In this document: piece after piece, positions 24,632-30,146 of the stretch
Layout of the letters: every line of letters begins with the position of its first letter
Numbering within the stretch: position 1 is the first letter of the stretch
Source of the DNA: Patescibacteria group bacterium UBA3527
GTDB lineage: Bacteria; Patescibacteriota; Minisyncoccia; Phycocordibacterales; UBA918
Assembly (NCBI GenBank): GCA_002377025.1
Contig: DFPA01000058.1
Span: forward strand, 1-30,146
Direction: 5' to 3'
DNA length: 30,146 bases
Notes under the pieces: generated by a model
Databases searched by the model: none
Told to the model about the DNA's origin: nothing
Seen by the model: only the letters and a program-made list of their open reading frames with translations
Program-made: the position numbers and the translations under genes

Positions 24632-25114
24632 ATGGAAACATCTGCCATTATATCTCTTATCCAGGAGTCACTGTTTGTAATAATAGTTTTTTTTGGCTTT
24701 CTTGTTTACTCAATGCTTAGAGGTAGGCATTACTTGATCAACTTAATCATAGGTCTTTATTTTGCCCTACTTATATCGCTTGAGTTTCCATACTACGAGA
24801 CCATACTTGGGGCCGCCAATACAGACCAGAGCCGAGCGATCCTTATGATTCTAGTATTTGCCGCATTTACAATTGCATCCACAACTTTACTCGGACGATT
24901 TTTGCATCAAGGTGATTATGATCGGGGAGTAATCGGTATTCATAGAAAGATTATTTACTCTCTGGCGGCAACAGTACTAGTAATGACTTATAGTTTTCAC
25001 GCCTTGCCGGTAACAGAGTTGGTTGACCCGGGGCCGATTCAGGCTTTGTTTGCAAGCCAAAACAGTTTCTTCTTTTGGCTCTTTGTACCTATTTTAATAT
25101 TGTTCTTTTTGTAG
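24632..25114 (+). CDS. Four-TM membrane protein (loosely CvpA-like)
   Basis: 160 aa, mostly hydrophobic segments. No diagnostic motif. Confidence 0.65.
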   Translation: METSAIISLIQESLFVIIVFFGFLVYSMLRGRHYLINLIIGLYFALLISLEFPYYETILGAANTDQSRAILMILVFAAFTIASTTLLGRFLHQGDYDRGVIGIHRKIIYSLAATVLVMTYSFHALPVTELVDPGPIQALFASQNSFFFWLFVPILILFFL

Positions 25115-25116
25115 TT

Positions 25117-25497
25117 ATGACAAGAGATGACTACGACCAGAATGGAAGTTGGGGGATTCTAGCGAGTATTGACTTGCACTCATGTAATCCTGACTTTATT
25201 CGAGATGCAGAGAAAATTAAGGACTTCACGCGTCAATTTTGCGACTTAATTGACGTAACAAGATTTGGCGAGTGTCAGATCGTTCACTTCGCCGATCACG
25301 ACGAAGACGTCGCTGGCTTCTCTATGGTGCAACTTATTGAAACTTCACTGGTTTCTGGACATTTTGCAAATAAAACAAACAATGTTTACTTGGATGTCTT
25401 TTCTTGCAAGTATTACGACCCAGATGCAGCTCATGAGTTCGCCAAGAAGTTTTTTGAGGCAAGGGATTCAACAGTTTGTGTGCTGCTCAGAAAATAG
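25117..25497 (+). CDS. speD: Pyruvoyl-dependent S-adenosylmethionine decarboxylase family proenzyme (class 1B-like, ET/S variant)
   Basis: IDLHSC and GFSMVQLIETSLVSGHF...YLDVFSCK. Ser69, Ser77, His82 and Cys97 have the canonical spacing (-8, 0, +5, +20). The ATG at 25117 gives 126 aa. Confidence 0.85.
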   Translation: MTRDDYDQNGSWGILASIDLHSCNPDFIRDAEKIKDFTRQFCDLIDVTRFGECQIVHFADHDEDVAGFSMVQLIETSLVSGHFANKTNNVYLDVFSCKYYDPDAAHEFAKKFFEARDSTVCVLLRK

Positions 25498-25499
25498 TT

Positions 25500-26024
25500 A
25501 TGGAATTTGTTGAACAGTCGCACAAGGATCTTTACTTGAGAGTAACTGCAGACATTGATTCACTTTGGGAGTATAAGATGCTCTCTAAAGCCAGTCTGAA
25601 TTTCCAAGGGTTACAGATTGAGTTTGGAATTTTAGGAGAGAGCCACTATGTGCTGGTTGCCAACAAGAGCTCTCGCTTCGCTGAGGTTTTTGCGTGTGGC
25701 AAGAAAAAATATGACGATGGGATTGAATTTAGTGACTTGATTGGAAGCTCCTTTGAAAAACAATTCGGGGACATATCATATCAGTTTGAGATGGAAGTAG
25801 TGAATGAACTAGAATCTTCTAAGCTATCTAGACTAAGAGAAAAGCGCAATGATCCAGATGTTAAGTACCTCAAGCACGACTTTCCAGCAAAGGACAAAGA
25901 CTTGTCGCATCCAGTGACAGAAGTGTATTTGAATACAAAAGGTGTCATCATTGTTGAGTCAGTTCATACATATCCCAATGAGAATGTTTCTGTTTTTACT
26001 AAGTCAAATTTTTTCATTACATAG
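25500..26024 (+). CDS. Uncharacterised protein (DUF2617-like from recall) with AdoMetDC-like motifs
   Basis: ILGESHYVLV...AEVFACG and SVHTYPNE motifs. 174 aa, coupled to speD and speE. Confidence 0.6.
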   Translation: MEFVEQSHKDLYLRVTADIDSLWEYKMLSKASLNFQGLQIEFGILGESHYVLVANKSSRFAEVFACGKKKYDDGIEFSDLIGSSFEKQFGDISYQFEMEVVNELESSKLSRLREKRNDPDVKYLKHDFPAKDKDLSHPVTEVYLNTKGVIIVESVHTYPNENVSVFTKSNFFIT

Positions 26025-26025
26025 C

Positions 26026-26880
26026 ATGAATAATTCAACTAAGCTTCATACGTACGAAACTCTCTACAAGGATTGGGGTCAGTTTTTTAGAGACTATGAA
26101 GTGCTAGTCGAGTCCAAAACTGGTGAACAGGACTTACTTCTCATTGATACCGAGTCCTTTGGAAAAGTTTTAATACTAGATGGAGTTGTACAGTTAACAG
26201 AGAGGGATAATTTTGTTTACCATGAAATGCTCACTCACGTACCCTTGATTGCACACGGAAGTGCAAAAAATGTTCTCGTTATCGGCGGCGGTGATGGAGG
26301 CACTATTCATCATGTATTGATGCACAGAGGCATAGAGGTGACAATGGTTGAGATTGACGAACAAGTCACTGAGTTTTCGAAAGAGCATCTGGCATTTGTA
26401 AATCATGACTCCTTTAGCAACCCAAGATTGTCGTTGCATATAGGAGACGGAGCAAAATTTGTCAAAGAGACTGCAGAAAAGTTTGATGTAATTATTGTTG
26501 ACTCAACGGACCCAATAGGACCTGGTGAAGTGCTATTCACTCGGGAGTTTTATGCGGATTGTAAACGCTGTCTTGGGGAAAACGGGATTCTTGTGACTCA
26601 AAACGGAGTACCGTTTACTCAACCTGAAGAGCTAGAGGAGTCAGTGTCTTACTTCAAAGAGTTATTCAAGTGCGGCACATGCTATTGTGCCTCGGTGCCA
26701 ACTTACGTAGGCGGAGTGATGGCTTTTGGCTTTGCTACAGATAATGTAAATCTTGTTAGTCAGCCAAAAGAAGACCTGGGCAAGAAAATTATAGATGCGG
26801 GCATTTGTTCGAAATACTACAATTCTGACATTCACCAGGCCTCTTTTGCTCTCCCAAACTTTATTAAGGAAATTGTTTAA
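26026..26880 (+). CDS. speE: Polyamine aminopropyltransferase (spermidine synthase)
   Basis: LDGVVQLTERDNFVYHEML, VLVIGGGDGG, VTMVEID, and FDVIIVDSTDP. The ATG at 26026 gives 284 aa. Confidence 0.95.
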   Translation: MNNSTKLHTYETLYKDWGQFFRDYEVLVESKTGEQDLLLIDTESFGKVLILDGVVQLTERDNFVYHEMLTHVPLIAHGSAKNVLVIGGGDGGTIHHVLMHRGIEVTMVEIDEQVTEFSKEHLAFVNHDSFSNPRLSLHIGDGAKFVKETAEKFDVIIVDSTDPIGPGEVLFTREFYADCKRCLGENGILVTQNGVPFTQPEELEESVSYFKELFKCGTCYCASVPTYVGGVMAFGFATDNVNLVSQPKEDLGKKIIDAGICSKYYNSDIHQASFALPNFIKEIV

Positions 26881-26882
26881 GT

Positions 26883-27827
26883 ATGCTATTGCCTGAGTGG
26901 TCAGTTGTCGGACTAGTTGCAGTTTCGATAGGAGTTGCAGGTACTTTCTTTGACAAGTATCTTCTTGAGAAATACTTTAACTCGGAGGATGAAGCAGATG
27001 ACGGTGGCCCCGGTGCACTGATGATTTTTTCCTCATACTTTGCATCTATAGTGGCGCTAGCGATTTTTCTTTTCTACCACAGCCGTATAGAGTTTGCTCT
27101 TGGTACTGGCATGGCAGGCTTGTTTGCTGGCGCTTTATTTGCAATATGGGTGTTTCTGTACTTGGAGGCCATTAACAGAGTCGAGTTGTCACGAGTGGTG
27201 CCCTTACTACAGACTATTCCTGCCTTTAGTCTGTTAATAGCCTTCGTAACACTGGGAGAGATTCTCACGCTCGAACAGGTATTAGCTATGCTAGGCCTTA
27301 TACTGGGTGCGATAGTACTTTTGTACACTAAAGAGGAGAATTGTTTTAGGCTGGATGGTACCACTCTCTGCATTATGCTTGGAGTATCATTGCTCACTGC
27401 TCTTAGCGACACCATTTTCAAAGCGGTTGCGCTTACCTCTAACTATGCTAGTGCAGCATTTTGGTCCTGGTGTGGATTTGTCTTGTTTGGAATCTCACTT
27501 TACTTGTTCAGCTCTCATTATCGGTCCCAGTTTGAGCTACTTACCAGAGAAAGATTTGGTGAGAAGTTCACCCTAAACTCCCTGAACGAAATTTTTGACA
27601 ATCTGCATGAACTACTTTTCTTTCTAGCGATTACGCTTGGACCTATTGCACTAGTCCATTCTATTAATGCCTATGAACCTATACTGGTACTGGTTGTAGG
27701 ATTTCTTATGGCTGCTCTCGCACCAAGGTACTTCAAAGAAGACAACTCGGGGAGTGTTGTTATATACAAAATATTCGGTGTATTAGTTATTACCGTTGCC
27801 AGTGTCTATCTTTATAGCGTAACTTAA
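26883..27827 (+). CDS. EamA/DMT-family transporter
   Basis: About 10 hydrophobic segments in two repeats, with ELSRVVPLLQTIPAF...LGE and GPIALVHSINAYEP motifs. Confidence 0.8.
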   Translation: MLLPEWSVVGLVAVSIGVAGTFFDKYLLEKYFNSEDEADDGGPGALMIFSSYFASIVALAIFLFYHSRIEFALGTGMAGLFAGALFAIWVFLYLEAINRVELSRVVPLLQTIPAFSLLIAFVTLGEILTLEQVLAMLGLILGAIVLLYTKEENCFRLDGTTLCIMLGVSLLTALSDTIFKAVALTSNYASAAFWSWCGFVLFGISLYLFSSHYRSQFELLTRERFGEKFTLNSLNEIFDNLHELLFFLAITLGPIALVHSINAYEPILVLVVGFLMAALAPRYFKEDNSGSVVIYKIFGVLVITVASVYLYSVT

Positions 27828-27829
27828 GT

Positions 27830-28909
27830 CTAGAAATACGATTCTAATTTGCCGCGACGGCGCACATCTGTGGTGGCGCAATGAATTGATCCTCCGAACG
27901 GATAGAAGTTTCTAAATGGTACAGGGATAGGTTCGATGCCGTGTTTATACAACAATTCCATCAGTGGTGTTTCGTTCTCTTCTACAATGGCTCTCTTACT
28001 GTCTATGCTTAGGAAATTTATCGTCAACCAGTCGCTCGAGAAGTACAGCGCTGAGTCAAAAGGTTTCGTAGGTGCGGGAGCTTCGATAATTTCCCATGAG
28101 TCAAACATGTCAGGTAGATGATCCTTTCGAACCCATGATGGATTTATGAGAAGTTTCCCGGGTGCAATAGGAACTATAGAGGTGTCTATATGTAGAGGAT
28201 GCTCTTCATCGAAGGAAAGTTCATGAATAGTATACTCGCTACCTATATGCCTACGTACCCACTCGATTCCCATCTCGTTCGTCACCTCACTTTTCTGAAC
28301 AAAAATATCTGTGCCAAATCGGACAAAATCAGCGGCATCAAATGCAACCTCTTTCTCTGAAATAGCAAACTGCCTTATACCATCAGGCTCAGCATTTTCT
28401 GGATCAAAATCTTGATTATAGAATGCATCATTCATTGTAGACTTTGGGGCAGGAAGCCACCTCGCACCATCCTTGAAGTATTCTTCAATAAGATCTCTAA
28501 AAGCAAAAATTTCAAAGTAGCGGGTTCTCCATGCCATCGGCGCCTCCACAATAATGTCACCAACAATAAGTAGAACGTCGCGTGGCATAGCAGCATACAG
28601 ACCAGTACTACTCCACCAAGGAGTTTTGTAGGTGTCGGAAAAGTCTAGAGGAGCAGGTCTTTTTACCGTTATATCTAATTTCTCTAGAACAGTGACAAGA
28701 TTGTTAAGCTCTTCCTCTGCTGCATCTGTCATTTCTCTTGGAAAAGGCTTGCCGCCATACTCATCAAAGAACCACTTCGAGTGGGAAGGAGTGGCTGAAC
28801 CCAATGCTACATTCCACTCCGGCACCACTGCATTCTTTACGGTTCCTACAATAACTTCCTCCAAAGGGTCCCATTCGTTACATGACCACACTTTCTTACT
28901 TACATCCAT
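27830..28909 (-). CDS. L-arginine-dependent amidinotransferase (AGAT/StrB1 family)
   Basis: VWSCNEWDPLEEVIVG, MPRD, and catalytic triad motifs FDAAD, LHIDT and GGSIHCATTDVRRRG. Confidence 0.95.
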   Translation of the reverse strand: MDVSKKVWSCNEWDPLEEVIVGTVKNAVVPEWNVALGSATPSHSKWFFDEYGGKPFPREMTDAAEEELNNLVTVLEKLDITVKRPAPLDFSDTYKTPWWSSTGLYAAMPRDVLLIVGDIIVEAPMAWRTRYFEIFAFRDLIEEYFKDGARWLPAPKSTMNDAFYNQDFDPENAEPDGIRQFAISEKEVAFDAADFVRFGTDIFVQKSEVTNEMGIEWVRRHIGSEYTIHELSFDEEHPLHIDTSIVPIAPGKLLINPSWVRKDHLPDMFDSWEIIEAPAPTKPFDSALYFSSDWLTINFLSIDSKRAIVEENETPLMELLYKHGIEPIPVPFRNFYPFGGSIHCATTDVRRRGKLESYF

Positions 28910-28999: not shown

Positions 29000-29152
29000 A
29001 TGAACAACAAGATTACAAGACTGCTGTTTAGATCACTTTTGATATTAGTTTTGATTAGTGTCGCGGCTACTTTTTATCGCTACGTTGTAGAGCGTGATTT
29101 TGAAGCCATTGACGACACAGAGGATTATGAGGAAGAAGTATTAGACGAGTAG
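29000..29152 (+). CDS. 50-aa single-TM small protein with an acidic tail (absent from the ORF track)
   Basis: My translation: MNNKITRLLFRSLLILVLISVAATFYRYVVERDFEAIDDTEDYEEEVLDE*. It ends 4 nt before the kinase ATG. Confidence 0.6.
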   Translation: MNNKITRLLFRSLLILVLISVAATFYRYVVERDFEAIDDTEDYEEEVLDE

Positions 29153-29156
29153 CATT

Positions 29157-30146
29157 ATGGATCCGATTATTTATTGCGCCTTTGACCCTGCAAAATATCT
29201 ATTTATCTCCCCGGAGGTTTCACCATTGATTTACTATTCACACTTGATTGCAGGATTTGCAGCACTTTCAATTAGCCTTTTAGTGTATTTACATAACCCG
29301 AAGCTACTTGTATCGAAGCTTTTCTTGGCCTTTGCTGTGGTCTTTGGTACATGGACATTCTTGGATGTTATTTTGTGGGCAACGAATGATCCCGGCATAG
29401 TCATGTTTGCTTGGTCTGTGCAAGTATTAGCTGAGCCAGCGCTTTTCGCTATTGCTTTCTATTTATTCTACGTCTTTATTTACAAAGCTATTCCTCCGTT
29501 ATGGCTCAATATTGTAATCTTCGCTGCTTTGCTACCACTAGTGGCACTGCTACCTACGAGTTTGAATCTTGAGGCTGTTTCTCTAGCTGAGTGTGAGAGC
29601 AAAGAAGGTCTGCTGGCTTTGTACTACACTTATATCCTTAATGGCCTTTTCACCGCTCTTACAGTTTGGTTTGGATTTAAGCAAATCGGAAGTCTAGAAG
29701 CTAATCACAAGAGATCAGCCAAGTTTATTGCTGTAGGGTTGGTCACTTTTCTTCTATCTTTTACTGTGGCTAACATGATCAGTAGCATCACCGATAATTG
29801 GAACATTAGCCAATATGGTCTGTTTGGAATGCCTGTCTTTGCTGGACTTGTTGCGTACAGCATAGTTCAATTTAGAACTTTTACTATCCACATCGCGGGG
29901 GCACAAGTTCTGGTGGTTGCATTGTTCGGTCTTGTAGCTGCCTCATTTTTTGTAAAAGAGGCACAGAGAGAAATGATTGCTTTTGGAACACTCTTCCTTA
30001 CTGCCATAGTTGGGTACTTCTTGGTTAAAGGAGTAAAAAAGGAATTTGAACAGAAACTGGAGTTAGAGAGGTTAGCTGCGCAATTGGATAAAGCCAACAA
30101 ACGCCTGAAAGTTTTGGACAAGATGAAGTCTGAGTTCGTTTCCATT
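29157..30146 (+). CDS. Multi-TM sensor histidine kinase (HisKA_7TM-like input), partial, running off the window end
   Basis: My translation gives 330 open codons with many TM segments, then the coiled coil LERLAAQLDKANKRLKVLDKMKSEFVSI leading into the H-box. The phosphoacceptor His lies beyond the window. Confidence 0.85.
   Translation, partial: MDPIIYCAFDPAKYLFISPEVSPLIYYSHLIAGFAALSISLLVYLHNPKLLVSKLFLAFAVVFGTWTFLDVILWATNDPGIVMFAWSVQVLAEPALFAIAFYLFYVFIYKAIPPLWLNIVIFAALLPLVALLPTSLNLEAVSLAECESKEGLLALYYTYILNGLFTALTVWFGFKQIGSLEANHKRSAKFIAVGLVTFLLSFTVANMISSITDNWNISQYGLFGMPVFAGLVAYSIVQFRTFTIHIAGAQVLVVALFGLVAASFFVKEAQREMIAFGTLFLTAIVGYFLVKGVKKEFEQKLELERLAAQLDKANKRLKVLDKMKSEFVSI

What the first reader, a model, noticed from the sequence alone, without database searches (positions are those of the whole stretch)
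27830..28909. Intact amidinotransferase with a non-AGAT acceptor pocket
Seen: the Asp, His and Cys triad motifs are intact, and the loop before the catalytic His reads FDEEHPLHID. Established: human AGAT has FKDPNPMHID, where Asn300 and Met302 contact the acceptor. Family members accept glycine, lysine, inosamine phosphates or polyamines. Inference: the Asn-to-His and Met-to-Leu changes, plus the acidic DEE, point to an acceptor other than glycine, possibly a cationic amine. The enzyme is unexpected in CPR and was probably acquired horizontally.
Basis: partly seen in the sequence, partly recalled or inferred. Interest (0 to 1): 0.68.

Follow-up and report, generated by a model that had tools for sequence, protein, structure and literature searches.

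The report
Patescibacterial amidinotransferase with HsvA-like pocket
This is an intact arginine-type amidinotransferase from a rare clade found only in ultra-small (CPR) bacteria; its substrate channel resembles the polyamine-modifying enzyme HsvA more than the creatine enzyme AGAT, but the molecule it amidinates is still unknown.

Summary
Window 27830-28909 (minus strand) encodes a 359-aa AGAT-family amidinotransferase with all catalytic residues, and the loop FDEEHPLHID aligns with human FKDPNPMHID.

- His at the Asn300 position is the bacterial norm. It also occurs in the lysine-specific AmtA.
- Leu for Met302 is confined to a small sub-lineage. The clade consensus is D-E-H-P-M.
- Glycine-specific CyrA carries Phe and Ser at these two positions, so they predict little.

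The better sign of a non-AGAT pocket was missed. AGAT Arg322 is Trp259 here (117 of 120 clade members), as in HsvA (Trp) and SxtG (Phe). The flap region scores 64 bits against HsvA and 39.6 against AGAT.

The gene is rare in CPR. Close orthologs occur in 8 of 120 genus genomes and in none of 24 (order), 300 (class) or 400 (phylum) sampled genomes. It still forms a CPR-only clade with native codon usage, so it is not a recent import.

Only the target's sub-lineage sits beside polyamine-type genes. The acceptor remains unproven; a carboxylate-free amine is my best guess (about 0.5).

The scan has met this clade before in other genomes.

The parts
27830..28909 (-). Amidinotransferase gene (359 aa), AGAT/HsvA/SxtG/StrB1 family, member of a CPR-specific clade
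   Evidence: ORF; PDB sequence matches at E 1e-100 to 1e-103; model pLDDT 93.3; Foldseek TM 0.95 to AGAT and HsvA; clade support 100/100
27878..27880 (-). Codon of Cys344, the catalytic nucleophile (AGAT Cys407), within GGSIHCATTD
   Evidence: invariant in the family alignment
28184..28213 (-). The '300-flap' plus catalytic His and Asp: F233-D-E-E-H237-P-L239-H240-I-D242 (AGAT F296 to D305)
   Evidence: The variant EEHPL...IDTS is exclusive to the sub-lineage at 77% identity or more; the clade consensus is D-E-H-P-M
28133..28135 (-). Codon of Trp259, at the position of AGAT Arg322. It is the main pocket difference, shared with HsvA (Trp) and SxtG (Phe)
   Evidence: W in 117 of 120 and Y in 3 of 120 clade members
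28337..28339 (-). Codon of Asp191 (AGAT Asp254 of the Cys-His-Asp triad), within FDAADF
28577..28579 (-). Codon of Asp111 (AGAT Asp170, guanidinium binding)
26883..27827 (+). EamA/DMT-type permease (314 aa), convergent with the amidinotransferase; the two stop codons are 2 bp apart
   Evidence: Pfam PF00892. Adjacent to the enzyme in most orthologous loci, in convergent or tandem orientation, but also present at this locus in genus genomes that lack the enzyme
26026..26880 (+). Spermidine synthase/aminopropyltransferase SpeE. The likely start is ATG 26026; the longest ORF starts at GTG 25942
   Evidence: NCBIfam NF002010 345 bits, Pfam PF01564; start checked. Found beside the enzyme only in the target's sub-lineage
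25500..26024 (+). DUF2617 protein between the AdoMet_dc homolog and SpeE
   Evidence: Pfam PF10936, E 2.7e-15; co-occurs with SpeE in L032, L113 and L115
25117..25497 (+). Pyruvoyl-type AdoMet_dc-family decarboxylase homolog (substrate not established)
   Evidence: Pfam PF02675 77 bits; NCBIfam SAM_DCase_Bsu only 27.7 bits against a cut-off of 75.65. It is the only copy in the genome
29000..29152 (+). 50-aa single-helix membrane protein with an acidic tail, divergent from the amidinotransferase and directly upstream of the kinase
   Evidence: ORF; homologs at the same place in L002, L003 and L012-L015, and in L019, which lacks the enzyme
29157..30146 (+). Multi-pass membrane sensor histidine kinase (N-terminal part; it runs off the window)
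   Evidence: ORF. Orthologs carry HisKA/HATPase_c and lie next to the enzyme in all 15 loci examined. The kinase is also present at the locus without the enzyme

Best explanation
The gene encodes a soluble, catalytically competent amidinotransferase.

Mechanism, inferred from the family. The guanidino group of a donor, most likely L-arginine, is bound by Asp111 and Asp242. Cys344, activated by His240 and Asp191, takes over the amidino group as a covalent S-amidino intermediate and releases ornithine. A primary amine then enters the same channel and receives the amidino group, giving a new guanidino compound.

Evolutionary setting. The protein belongs to a clade found only in Patescibacteria (CPR). 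It is an old but mostly lost accessory gene, lodged at a fixed site between an EamA permease and a small-membrane-protein/sensor-kinase pair.

Pocket and acceptor. The channel is not AGAT-like. The Arg that is conserved in AGAT, CyrA, StrB1-like and most bacterial homologs (AGAT Arg322) is Trp, and AGAT Ala306 is Thr. Both states match HsvA (acceptor spermidine or putrescine) and SxtG (acceptor a carboxylate-free aminoketone). I therefore think the acceptor is a primary amine without an alpha-carboxylate, most plausibly a di- or polyamine, giving an amidino-polyamine or agmatine-like product.

Local context. In the target's own sub-lineage the gene lies next to SpeE, DUF2617 and an AdoMet_dc homolog, and the flap has changed (EEHPL...TS). 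This fits a local link to polyamine metabolism.

What is shown: intactness, fold, clade, pocket residues, distribution and gene contexts. What is inferred: the donor, the acceptor class, and any export by EamA.

Sub-confidences: active amidinotransferase 0.9; acceptor is not glycine or another amino acid 0.5-0.55; acceptor is specifically a polyamine 0.35.
For: - Catalytic set complete and fold confident.
- The CPR clade is monophyletic with a long stem: SH-aLRT 100 and UFBoot/SH-aLRT 100/100 with stem 0.65.
- Trp at the Arg322 position in 117 of 120 clade members. That position is Arg in the AGAT-like, CyrA, large bacterial and StrB1-like clades, Trp in HsvA, and Phe or Tyr in SxtG and its relatives.
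- Only 7 positions separate the CPR clade from the large Arg322-type bacterial clade. At two of them, T243 and W259, the CPR state matches HsvA and the SxtG-like clade.
- Residues 215-275, which hold the flap, the catalytic His and the 322 loop, score 64 bits against HsvA, 56 against SxtG and 39.6 against AGAT. The whole protein scores about equally against all three.
- A tree constrained to CPR+HsvA has a log-likelihood 6.3 units higher than the free-search tree.
- HsvA amidinates spermidine (PMC6187163). SxtG has an acidic pocket for cationic amines (PMC12371840).
- All loci examined from the sub-lineage at 77% identity or more (window, L032, L113, L114, L115) carry SpeE, DUF2617 and/or an AdoMet_dc homolog just beyond the adjacent membrane-protein gene (EamA, or an unrelated small membrane protein in L032 and L115). 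Orthologs at 68-73% identity have none.
- The own genome, 79% complete, shows no ornithine or arginine decarboxylase, arginase/agmatinase, agmatine deiminase, arginine deiminase or ornithine carbamoyltransferase. Ornithine therefore has no recognised consumer, and the guanidino product is more likely the point of the reaction.
- In another branch of the clade the gene is followed by a PRMT-like methyltransferase with an intact double-E guanidinium-binding loop. That also fits a pathway centred on the new guanidino group.
Against: - No assay exists and no ligand modelling was possible.
- The role of AGAT Arg322 in binding the substrate alpha-carboxylate is recalled from Humm et al. 1997 and Fritsche et al. 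1997; I could not read either paper here.
- Flap residues are known to be poor predictors of acceptor.
- Ten clade members carry exactly the AmtA flap DMHPM, and one carries the AGAT flap DPNPM.
- A basic residue (R or K) usually follows W259-V260 and might substitute for Arg322.
- The target pocket lacks the extra Glu residues of SxtG; compare the residues named with the alignment.
- The tree does not resolve the sister group. CPR+vertebrate AGAT is not rejected (p 0.395) and CPR+CyrA is not rejected (p 0.168).
- 7 of 9 enzyme-positive genus genomes lack a bona fide SpeE and lack AdoMet_dc. The polyamine-gene link is one lineage-specific event.
- EamA and the kinase occupy this locus with or without the enzyme, so adjacency alone does not show a functional pair.
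- HsvB/HsvC-type ATP-grasp partners are absent from the window.
Confidence: 0.5

Rival explanations
1. It is an amino-acid amidinotransferase. It makes guanidinoacetate from glycine (like AGAT or CyrA) or homoarginine from lysine (like AmtA), and the product is a stand-alone metabolite or antimetabolite.
For: Overall best PDB sequence match is AGAT. His at the Asn300 position and Met at 302 in the clade consensus match AmtA, and 10 clade members have the exact AmtA flap. An R or K usually lies two residues after Trp259. A CPR+AGAT grouping is not rejected. Public annotation calls the orthologs 'glycine amidinotransferase', though this is automatic naming only. The PRMT-like neighbour in one branch recalls the AGAT-GAMT pair of creatine synthesis.
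Against: Arg322 is conserved in every clade that holds a characterised or annotated glycine enzyme that I could place (the vertebrate AGAT fragment and the CyrA ortholog). It is lost here. The flap and 322-loop region is clearly closer to HsvA and SxtG than to AGAT. I could not obtain an AmtA sequence, so its residue at position 322 is unknown.
Confidence: 0.3
2. It works mainly in the de-amidinating direction on decarboxylated guanidines. Agmatine or N1-aminopropylagmatine donates its amidino group to an acceptor such as ornithine, releasing putrescine or spermidine. This would replace the missing agmatinase/ureohydrolase in the neighbouring polyamine cluster.
For: Transamidination is reversible (AmtA). 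No arginase-fold ureohydrolase, agmatine deiminase or PLP decarboxylase was found in the genome. The neighbouring AdoMet_dc homolog scores poorly against the SAM-decarboxylase equivalog. Homologs of it occur in 31 of 121 genus genomes, but SpeE in only 4, so it may decarboxylate something other than SAM. DUF2617 accompanies SpeE even without the AdoMet_dc homolog. Loss of the carboxylate-binding Arg would suit decarboxylated substrates.
Against: Most enzyme-positive genomes have neither SpeE nor the AdoMet_dc homolog. No source of the co-substrate ornithine is evident. The genome is only 79% complete. Nothing tests the direction of the reaction.
Confidence: 0.1
3. It is a hydrolase such as an arginine deiminase or dihydrolase, or an inactive relic, rather than a transferase.
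For: The guanidino-modifying superfamily includes hydrolases with the same fold, which appear as weaker Foldseek matches.
Against: Sequence and fold matches to true amidinotransferases are far stronger: TM 0.89-0.95 against 0.55-0.64, and E 1e-73 to 1e-103. 145 positions are at least 95% conserved across 120 clade members, which indicates purifying selection.
Confidence: 0.04

Closest known systems
HsvA, polyamine (spermidine) amidinotransferase of Erwinia amylovora and Pseudomonas syringae (PDB 5WPI; phevamine pathway)
   Same: Same fold (TM 0.95, rmsd 1.3, 46% identity). Same catalytic residues. Trp at the AGAT Arg322 position and Thr at the Ala306 position. Shares the F-D-E start of the flap. 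It is the best-scoring PDB match over the flap and 322-loop region (64 bits). A CPR+HsvA sister grouping is not rejected and gives the best likelihood found.
   Different: HsvA has Ala where the target has His (Asn300 position). HsvA works with two ATP-grasp ligases (HsvB, HsvC) beside a type III secretion cluster; no such genes are in the window. The sister relationship is unproven. The acceptor here is untested.
Human L-arginine:glycine amidinotransferase (AGAT/GATM, PDB 1JDW)
   Same: Best whole-length sequence match (E 6e-103), TM 0.95. Identical catalytic Cys-His-Asp triad and Asp170/Asp305/Ser354-355 equivalents.
   Different: The flap is E-E-H-P-L rather than D-P-N-P-M. Arg322 is Trp, Ala306 is Thr, Met353 is Phe and Asn399 is Tyr. 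No mitochondrial presequence. The flap region scores only 39.6 bits.
SxtG, saxitoxin-pathway amidinotransferase (PDB 6U1R)
   Same: Aromatic residue (Phe) at the Arg322 position, Thr at 306 and Leu at the Met302 position. The SxtG-like clade is the weakly supported sister (84/76) in the free tree.
   Different: SxtG's extra acidic residues (E255, E276, E58/E59) are His, Ser and non-acidic residues here. SxtG sits in a toxin gene cluster, and this gene does not.
AmtA, L-arginine:lysine amidinotransferase of Pseudomonas savastanoi pv. phaseolicola
   Same: His at the Asn300 position. The clade consensus D-x-H-P-M equals AmtA's D-M-H-P-M, and ten clade members are identical to it in the flap.
   Different: The target itself has Leu where AmtA's essential Met246 lies. 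AmtA's residue at the Arg322 position could not be checked because no sequence was available. No phaseolotoxin-type context.
CyrA/AoaA, cyanobacterial L-arginine:glycine amidinotransferase
   Same: Same family and catalytic residues. Its flap also departs from AGAT (D-I-F-P-S).
   Different: The CyrA ortholog keeps Arg at position 322 (NPERP). In the free tree it lies in a separate clade, split from the rest by a 99/93 branch. A CPR+CyrA constraint costs 30 log-likelihood units but is not formally rejected (p 0.168).

Membership tests
AGAT/StrB1-type amidinotransferases (guanidino-group-modifying enzyme superfamily) | Catalytic Cys-His-Asp triad (AGAT C407, H303, D254) | tested here: met
   C344, H240 and D191 align exactly. 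H and C are invariant and the Asp nearly invariant (at least 90%) in the 49-sequence family alignment
AGAT/StrB1-type amidinotransferases (guanidino-group-modifying enzyme superfamily) | Guanidinium-binding acidic pair (AGAT D170, D305) | tested here: met
   D111 and D242
AGAT/StrB1-type amidinotransferases (guanidino-group-modifying enzyme superfamily) | Full-length fold of the solved amidinotransferases | tested here: met
   AF2 pLDDT 93.3. Foldseek TM 0.95 to AGAT, 0.95 to HsvA, 0.93 to SxtG and 0.89 to StrB1; hydrolases of the superfamily reach only 0.55-0.64
AGAT/StrB1-type amidinotransferases (guanidino-group-modifying enzyme superfamily) | Amidino transfer from arginine through an S-amidino-Cys intermediate | not testable with these tools
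   Needs an enzyme assay
Glycine amidinotransferase in the strict sense (EC 2.1.4.1: AGAT, CyrA) | Arg at AGAT position 322 (substrate carboxylate contact, role recalled from the literature) | tested here: not met
   Trp259. The vertebrate AGAT fragment P0235, the CyrA ortholog and their clades have Arg
Glycine amidinotransferase in the strict sense (EC 2.1.4.1: AGAT, CyrA) | AGAT 300-flap D-P-N-P-M | tested here: not met
   E-E-H-P-L. This is a weak criterion, because CyrA has D-I-F-P-S and still uses glycine
Glycine amidinotransferase in the strict sense (EC 2.1.4.1: AGAT, CyrA) | Phylogenetic placement inside the AGAT or CyrA clade | tested here: inconclusive
   The free tree places it outside both. 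AU tests do not reject CPR+AGAT (p 0.395) or CPR+CyrA (p 0.168)
HsvA-type polyamine amidinotransferase | Aromatic residue at position 322, Thr at 306, and an HsvA-like flap and loop sequence | tested here: met
   W259 and T243. Region 215-275 scores 64 bits against HsvA and 39.6 against AGAT
HsvA-type polyamine amidinotransferase | Monophyly with HsvA | tested here: inconclusive
   Polytomy. The constrained CPR+HsvA tree has a log-likelihood 6.3 units higher than the free tree, p-AU 0.60
HsvA-type polyamine amidinotransferase | Operon with HsvB/HsvC ATP-grasp ligases | tested here: not met
   None among the window's ORFs or Pfam hits. Present next to the Pantoea HsvA ortholog
HsvA-type polyamine amidinotransferase | Preference for spermidine or putrescine as acceptor | not testable with these tools
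   Needs an assay
AmtA-type lysine amidinotransferase | Flap D-M-H-P-M with the essential Met (AmtA Met246) | tested here: inconclusive
   The His is present. The target has Leu at the Met position, while 109 of 120 clade members have Met and 10 have the exact AmtA flap

The most novel reading that the evidence does not exclude
The enzyme handles decarboxylated guanidine/amine pairs (agmatine, putrescine, N1-aminopropylagmatine, spermidine). In this sub-lineage it would form an undescribed polyamine route together with the neighbouring AdoMet_dc-family decarboxylase, DUF2617 and SpeE. That route would have no ureohydrolase. It would either make amidino-spermidine-type guanidino-polyamines for export through the adjacent permease, or remove the amidino group by transfer in place of agmatinase. 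More broadly, the CPR clade, with its PRMT-like partner in some lineages and its constant position beside a multi-pass sensor kinase, could make a guanidino compound used in the interaction of these episymbionts with their hosts.
Probability: 0.15. Interest if true: 0.75.

Novelty: new member of a known kind. Interest (0 to 1): 0.42.

Why it matters
CPR bacteria have tiny genomes and very little biosynthesis, so each retained accessory enzyme hints at what they exchange with their hosts. This clade of amidinotransferases is uncharacterised; no paper in the searched library pairs 'amidinotransferase' with 'Patescibacteria'.

The Arg322-to-aromatic replacement, shared with the two solved enzymes that amidinate carboxylate-free amines, gives a simple marker that can be tested by mutation. 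It could sort the many family members annotated as 'glycine amidinotransferase' by likely acceptor class.

If the acceptor is a polyamine, the window would document guanidino-polyamine chemistry in CPR, next to an unusual spermidine gene set. If the enzyme turns out to be an ordinary glycine or lysine amidinotransferase, the finding is a routine family member in an unusual host.

Tried and rejected
- Pfam-A and NCBIfam gave no usable family hit for the enzyme, even at E 10.
- The HsvA, SxtG and AGAT structure papers are not held. The roles of Arg322 and of HsvA's Trp therefore rest on memory and on conservation patterns.
- Authentic AmtA, StrB1, SxtG and human AGAT sequences could not be brought into the tree. 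I used stand-ins: a Pantoea hsvABC ortholog (L030), a Dolichospermum cyr-cluster ortholog (L031), representatives carrying the SxtG flap (P0133) and a vertebrate AGAT fragment (P0235), and StrB1-like representatives.
- The listing of cluster members returned only generic names.
- Functional coupling to EamA and to the sensor kinase, inferred from adjacency alone, was considered and downgraded. Both genes occupy the locus in genus genomes that lack the enzyme. EamA is present in 5 of 9 enzyme-positive genomes, against 51 of 121 overall.
- Co-occurrence with SpeE or AdoMet_dc across the genus shows no enrichment: the overlap is 2 genomes, with about 2.3 expected for AdoMet_dc.
- Recent horizontal transfer was tested by GC, GC3 and codon usage, and no signal appeared.
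- A promoter and terminator scan of the flanks found nothing above chance.
- AU tests could not fix the sister group.
- No residue-level pocket geometry could be extracted, because model coordinates are not exposed.
Full report
**1. The observation**

The minus-strand ORF 27830-28909 is intact and encodes 359 aa with an ATG start. phmmer against all PDB chain sequences gives end-to-end matches:
- human AGAT, E 6e-103
- HsvA, E 1.6e-101
- SxtG, E 2.8e-100
- StrB1, E 1.8e-73

Every catalytic or guanidinium-binding residue of AGAT has its counterpart:
- D111 = D170
- D191 = D254
- H240 = H303
- D242 = D305
- S291/S292 = S354/S355
- C344 = C407

Residues 233-242 read FDEEHPLHID, opposite AGAT's FKDPNPMHID. 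An AlphaFold2 model built from a 49-sequence alignment is confident (pLDDT 93.3, pTM 0.92). Its Foldseek TM-scores are 0.95 to AGAT, 0.95 to HsvA, 0.93 to SxtG and 0.89 to StrB1. Hydrolases of the same superfamily reach only 0.55-0.64. Pfam and NCBIfam have no model that captures the protein.

**2.

The literature held here gives the 300-flap of the characterised enzymes:

| Enzyme | Flap | Acceptor | Source |
|---|---|---|---|
| AGAT | D-P-N-P-M | glycine | PMC4887976, |
| AmtA | D-M-H-P-M | Lys or Orn only | PMC4887976, |
| CyrA/AoaA | D-I-F-P-S | strictly glycine | PMC4887976 and PMC3684758, |
| HsvA | E-P-A-P-M | spermidine, putrescine | PDB alignment, |
| SxtG | C-P-E-A-L | carboxylate-free aminoketone | PDB alignment, |

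An AmtA M243P/H244N variant keeps AmtA's specificity.

Among 120 close relatives of the target (at least 63% identity), the Asn300 position is His in 97, Asn in 11 and Tyr in 9. The Met302 position is Met in 109 and Leu in only 11. The exact variant FDEEHPLHIDTS is confined to the ten sequences that are at least 77% identical to the target.

In 75 named bacterial homologs from Actinomycetota, Myxococcota, Acidobacteriota, Photorhabdus/Xenorhabdus and others, the flap is almost always D-x-H-P-M-H-I-D-A-T. Three conclusions follow. His at this position is the bacterial norm. Leu is a local variant. Neither residue predicts the acceptor.

**3. The pocket difference that does stand out**

Directly after the conserved N-P of the loop that follows the catalytic His, most clades have Arg (AGAT N319-P-D-R322). 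This holds for the AGAT-like, CyrA-like, large bacterial and StrB1-like clades.

The CPR clade has Trp there in 117 of 120 sequences and Tyr in 3. HsvA has Trp (NKGWV) and SxtG has Phe (NPEFV).

The phmmer alignment of the target alone is ambiguous, because the target carries a two-residue insert. Clade members without the insert align ungapped, which places Trp on Arg322.

I then screened for positions that are at least 90% conserved in the CPR clade and at least 80% conserved as a different residue in the large bacterial clade. Only seven positions came out:
- M159
- A189
- V218
- T243 (AGAT A306)
- W259 (R322)
- F290 (M353)
- Y336 (N399)

At T243 and W259 the CPR state equals that of HsvA and the SxtG-like clade.

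The 61-residue stretch holding the flap, the catalytic His and this loop scores 64 bits against HsvA, 56 against SxtG and 39.6 against AGAT. The whole protein scores about equally against all three.

From memory of Humm et al. 1997 and Fritsche et al. 1997, Arg322 contacts the alpha-carboxylate of arginine or ornithine. I could not read these papers here, so this point is marked as recalled. HsvA amidinates spermidine (PMC6187163). SxtG takes carboxylate-free amines in an acidic pocket (PMC12371840). This is the basis for preferring a carboxylate-free amine as acceptor.

**4. Phylogeny**

I built trees from three sources:
- CPR relatives
- representatives of 50%-identity clusters
- named genome loci

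An HsvA ortholog (Pantoea stewartii hsvABC beside a type III secretion cluster) and a CyrA ortholog (Dolichospermum cyr-type cluster) were added.

The CPR sequences form one clade with full support and a long stem: SH-aLRT 100, and 100/100 with stem 0.65 under LG+C20 PMSF. No non-CPR sequence nests in or next to the clade. The nearest non-CPR homologs are 50-55% identical.

The sister group is unresolved:
- The free tree pairs the clade weakly (84/76) with the SxtG-like clade.
- A tree constrained to CPR+HsvA has a log-likelihood 6.3 units higher than the free tree (p-AU 0.60).
- CPR+vertebrate AGAT is not rejected (p 0.395).
- CPR+CyrA costs 30 log-likelihood units (p 0.168).

**5. Distribution and origin**

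The genome holds 552,779 bp in 62 contigs and is 79% complete. Close orthologs (69-80% identity) occur as follows:

| Sample | Genomes with a close ortholog |
|---|---|
| Same GTDB genus | 8 of 120 |
| Other families of the order | 0 of 24 |
| Class, even sample | 0 of 300 |
| Phylum, even sample | 0 of 400 |

The class sample contains five StrB1-like paralogs at 30-33% identity. The phylum sample contains one homolog at 36%.

Metagenomes nevertheless hold well over 100 distinct 90%-identity clusters of the clade.

The gene's composition matches the genome. Its GC is 0.438 and GC3 0.400, against genome ORF means of 0.419 and 0.404. Its codon-usage distance is at the 9th percentile for genes of similar length. 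Orthologs sit at the same syntenic site. The gene is therefore truly rare in CPR. It looks like an old resident of one lineage that most descendants have lost, not a recent import.

**6. Gene neighbourhood**

The backbone RpoA-L17-L13-S9-GrpE-DnaK-DnaJ-p160-EamA-[enzyme]-p50-kinase is shared with relatives.

Genus genomes without the enzyme keep DnaJ-p160-EamA, followed by the small membrane protein and the kinase. In one of them an unrelated 267-aa gene sits in between. Adjacency to EamA and to the kinase is therefore first of all a property of the locus.

Two observations keep a functional link open. In more distant CPR lineages the enzyme and an EamA gene are tandem, 6-8 bp apart (L005, L029). 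The kinase also stays adjacent in three otherwise different contexts.

In one branch (L026, L027/L036, L035) the enzyme is followed by a 281-aa methyltransferase and then the kinase. That methyltransferase matches PRMT6, PRMT7, CARM1 and PRMT1 (E 1.7e-13). It retains the D..RT..F motif, the VLDxGxGxG motif and the double-E loop that binds guanidinium.

**7. The polyamine genes**

In the window, the EamA gene is preceded by three genes:
- an AdoMet_dc-family gene (25117-25497)
- a DUF2617 gene (25500-26024)
- speE (26026-26880)

A bona fide SpeE occurs in only 4 of 121 genus genomes. AdoMet_dc homologs occur in 31 of 121, mostly next to EamA.

Of the nine enzyme-positive genomes, only G000 and its nearest relative G362 have these genes. 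Across the genus there is therefore no general co-occurrence.

Within the sub-lineage at 77% identity or more, every context examined has polyamine-type genes at the same place:

| Locus | Genes present |
|---|---|
| Window, L032, L115 | AdoMet_dc, DUF2617 and SpeE |
| L113 | SpeE and DUF2617 |
| L114 | AdoMet_dc only |

This is also the only sub-lineage with the EEHPL...TS flap. It counts as one evolutionary event and is suggestive rather than statistical.

The genome shows none of the following, within the limit of 79% completeness:
- PLP ornithine or arginine decarboxylase
- pyruvoyl arginine decarboxylase of the PdaD type
- arginase or agmatinase
- agmatine deiminase
- arginine deiminase
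- ornithine carbamoyltransferase
- APC permease

**8. Reading**

Shown:
- An intact AGAT-family amidinotransferase.
- Membership of a CPR-only, patchily retained clade.
- A substrate channel that departs from AGAT at the Arg322 position in the same way as HsvA and SxtG.

Inferred:
- Arginine is the donor.
- The acceptor is a carboxylate-free amine, most plausibly a polyamine (about 0.5 for the class and 0.35 for polyamines specifically).

Rivals:
- An amino-acid acceptor, glycine or lysine (0.3).
- De-amidination of agmatine-type compounds in place of a ureohydrolase (0.1).
- A hydrolase or an inactive relic (0.04).

**9. Relation to earlier notes of this scan**

After my own analysis I looked up earlier notes. 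The same clade has been reported from other genomes:
- as an old CPR-specific amidinotransferase beside a transporter and a sensor kinase (e1-1297378, e1-1588762)
- beside a PRMT-like methyltransferase (e1-1142212)

My independent results agree with these. I add that the kinase and EamA are present at the locus without the enzyme, so 'wiring' is not demonstrated.

Notes on the neighbouring DUF2617 and AdoMet_dc genes (e1-5291450, e1-5291452) supplied the idea behind rival 2. I tested that idea only through gene counts and contexts.

**10. Verdict**

The claim of horizontal transfer is weak. The finding is a new member of a known enzyme family with an HsvA/SxtG-like pocket, in an unusual host and with an unknown acceptor. 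Interest is moderate.

Noticed in passing
window 25117-25497; genus genomes G301-G442: AdoMet_dc-family homologs occur in 31 of 121 genomes of the genus, but a bona fide spermidine synthase in only 4. In at least 15 genomes the AdoMet_dc gene lies next to, or within about 2 kb of, the EamA permease gene. The window's copy scores 27.7 bits against the SAM-decarboxylase equivalog, whose cut-off is 75.65. Most of these decarboxylases therefore probably do not feed an aminopropyltransferase, and they may act on another substrate such as arginine.
   Followed up: partly
L113:7104-8609 (GCA_964353075.1); window 25500-26880: In one relative, SpeE and DUF2617 are adjacent with no AdoMet_dc-family gene called in the stretch shown. 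This is compatible with the earlier suggestion that DUF2617 supplies the decarboxylated SAM.
   Followed up: no
L026:7164-8009, L027:7192-8040, L035:4074-4910, L036:4144-4983: A 281-aa PRMT-like methyltransferase lies directly downstream of the CPR amidinotransferase and upstream of the sensor kinase. It matches PRMT6 at E 1.7e-13 and retains the D..RT..F motif, the VLDxGxGxG motif and the double-E guanidinium-binding loop. Bacterial PRMT-like enzymes are unusual.
   Followed up: partly
window 29000-30146; L019:3242-3921: A small (44-50 aa) single-helix protein with a strongly acidic tail always precedes a multi-pass membrane histidine kinase. The pair is conserved across the genus whether or not the amidinotransferase is present.
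   Followed up: partly
L007-L011 (G271, G018, G212, G125, G113): Five of 300 class genomes carry a different, StrB1-like amidinotransferase at 30-33% identity (motif IYRSSHIDST...N[AS]xR[VA], Arg322 retained). A second family member is therefore scattered in CPR.
   Followed up: no
P0060; P0091, P0096, P0099, P0101, P0103, P0104, P0107, P0115, P0119, P0120: Within the CPR clade, one member has the exact AGAT flap DPNPM and ten have the exact AmtA flap DMHPM, while all keep Trp or Tyr at the Arg322 position. The flap varies freely within the clade.
   Followed up: partly
L027/L036 (GCA_050260455.1, labelled Bacillota) and L034 (labelled Saccharibacteria): Both carry CPR-clade amidinotransferases, and L034 has Paceibacteria-type synteny. 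The taxon labels of these MAGs look unreliable.
   Followed up: no
L032:4136-4732 and L115:6150-6737: In the closest relatives the EamA gene between SpeE and the amidinotransferase is replaced by an unrelated membrane protein of about 195 aa. The permease slot is therefore interchangeable.
   Followed up: no
window 25075-26024: The longest ORFs of the three spe-cluster genes overlap each other: TTG 25075, TTG 25476 and GTG 25942. ATG starts at 25117, 25500 and 26026 give a tightly packed, non-overlapping operon that matches the gene lengths in relatives.
   Followed up: yes
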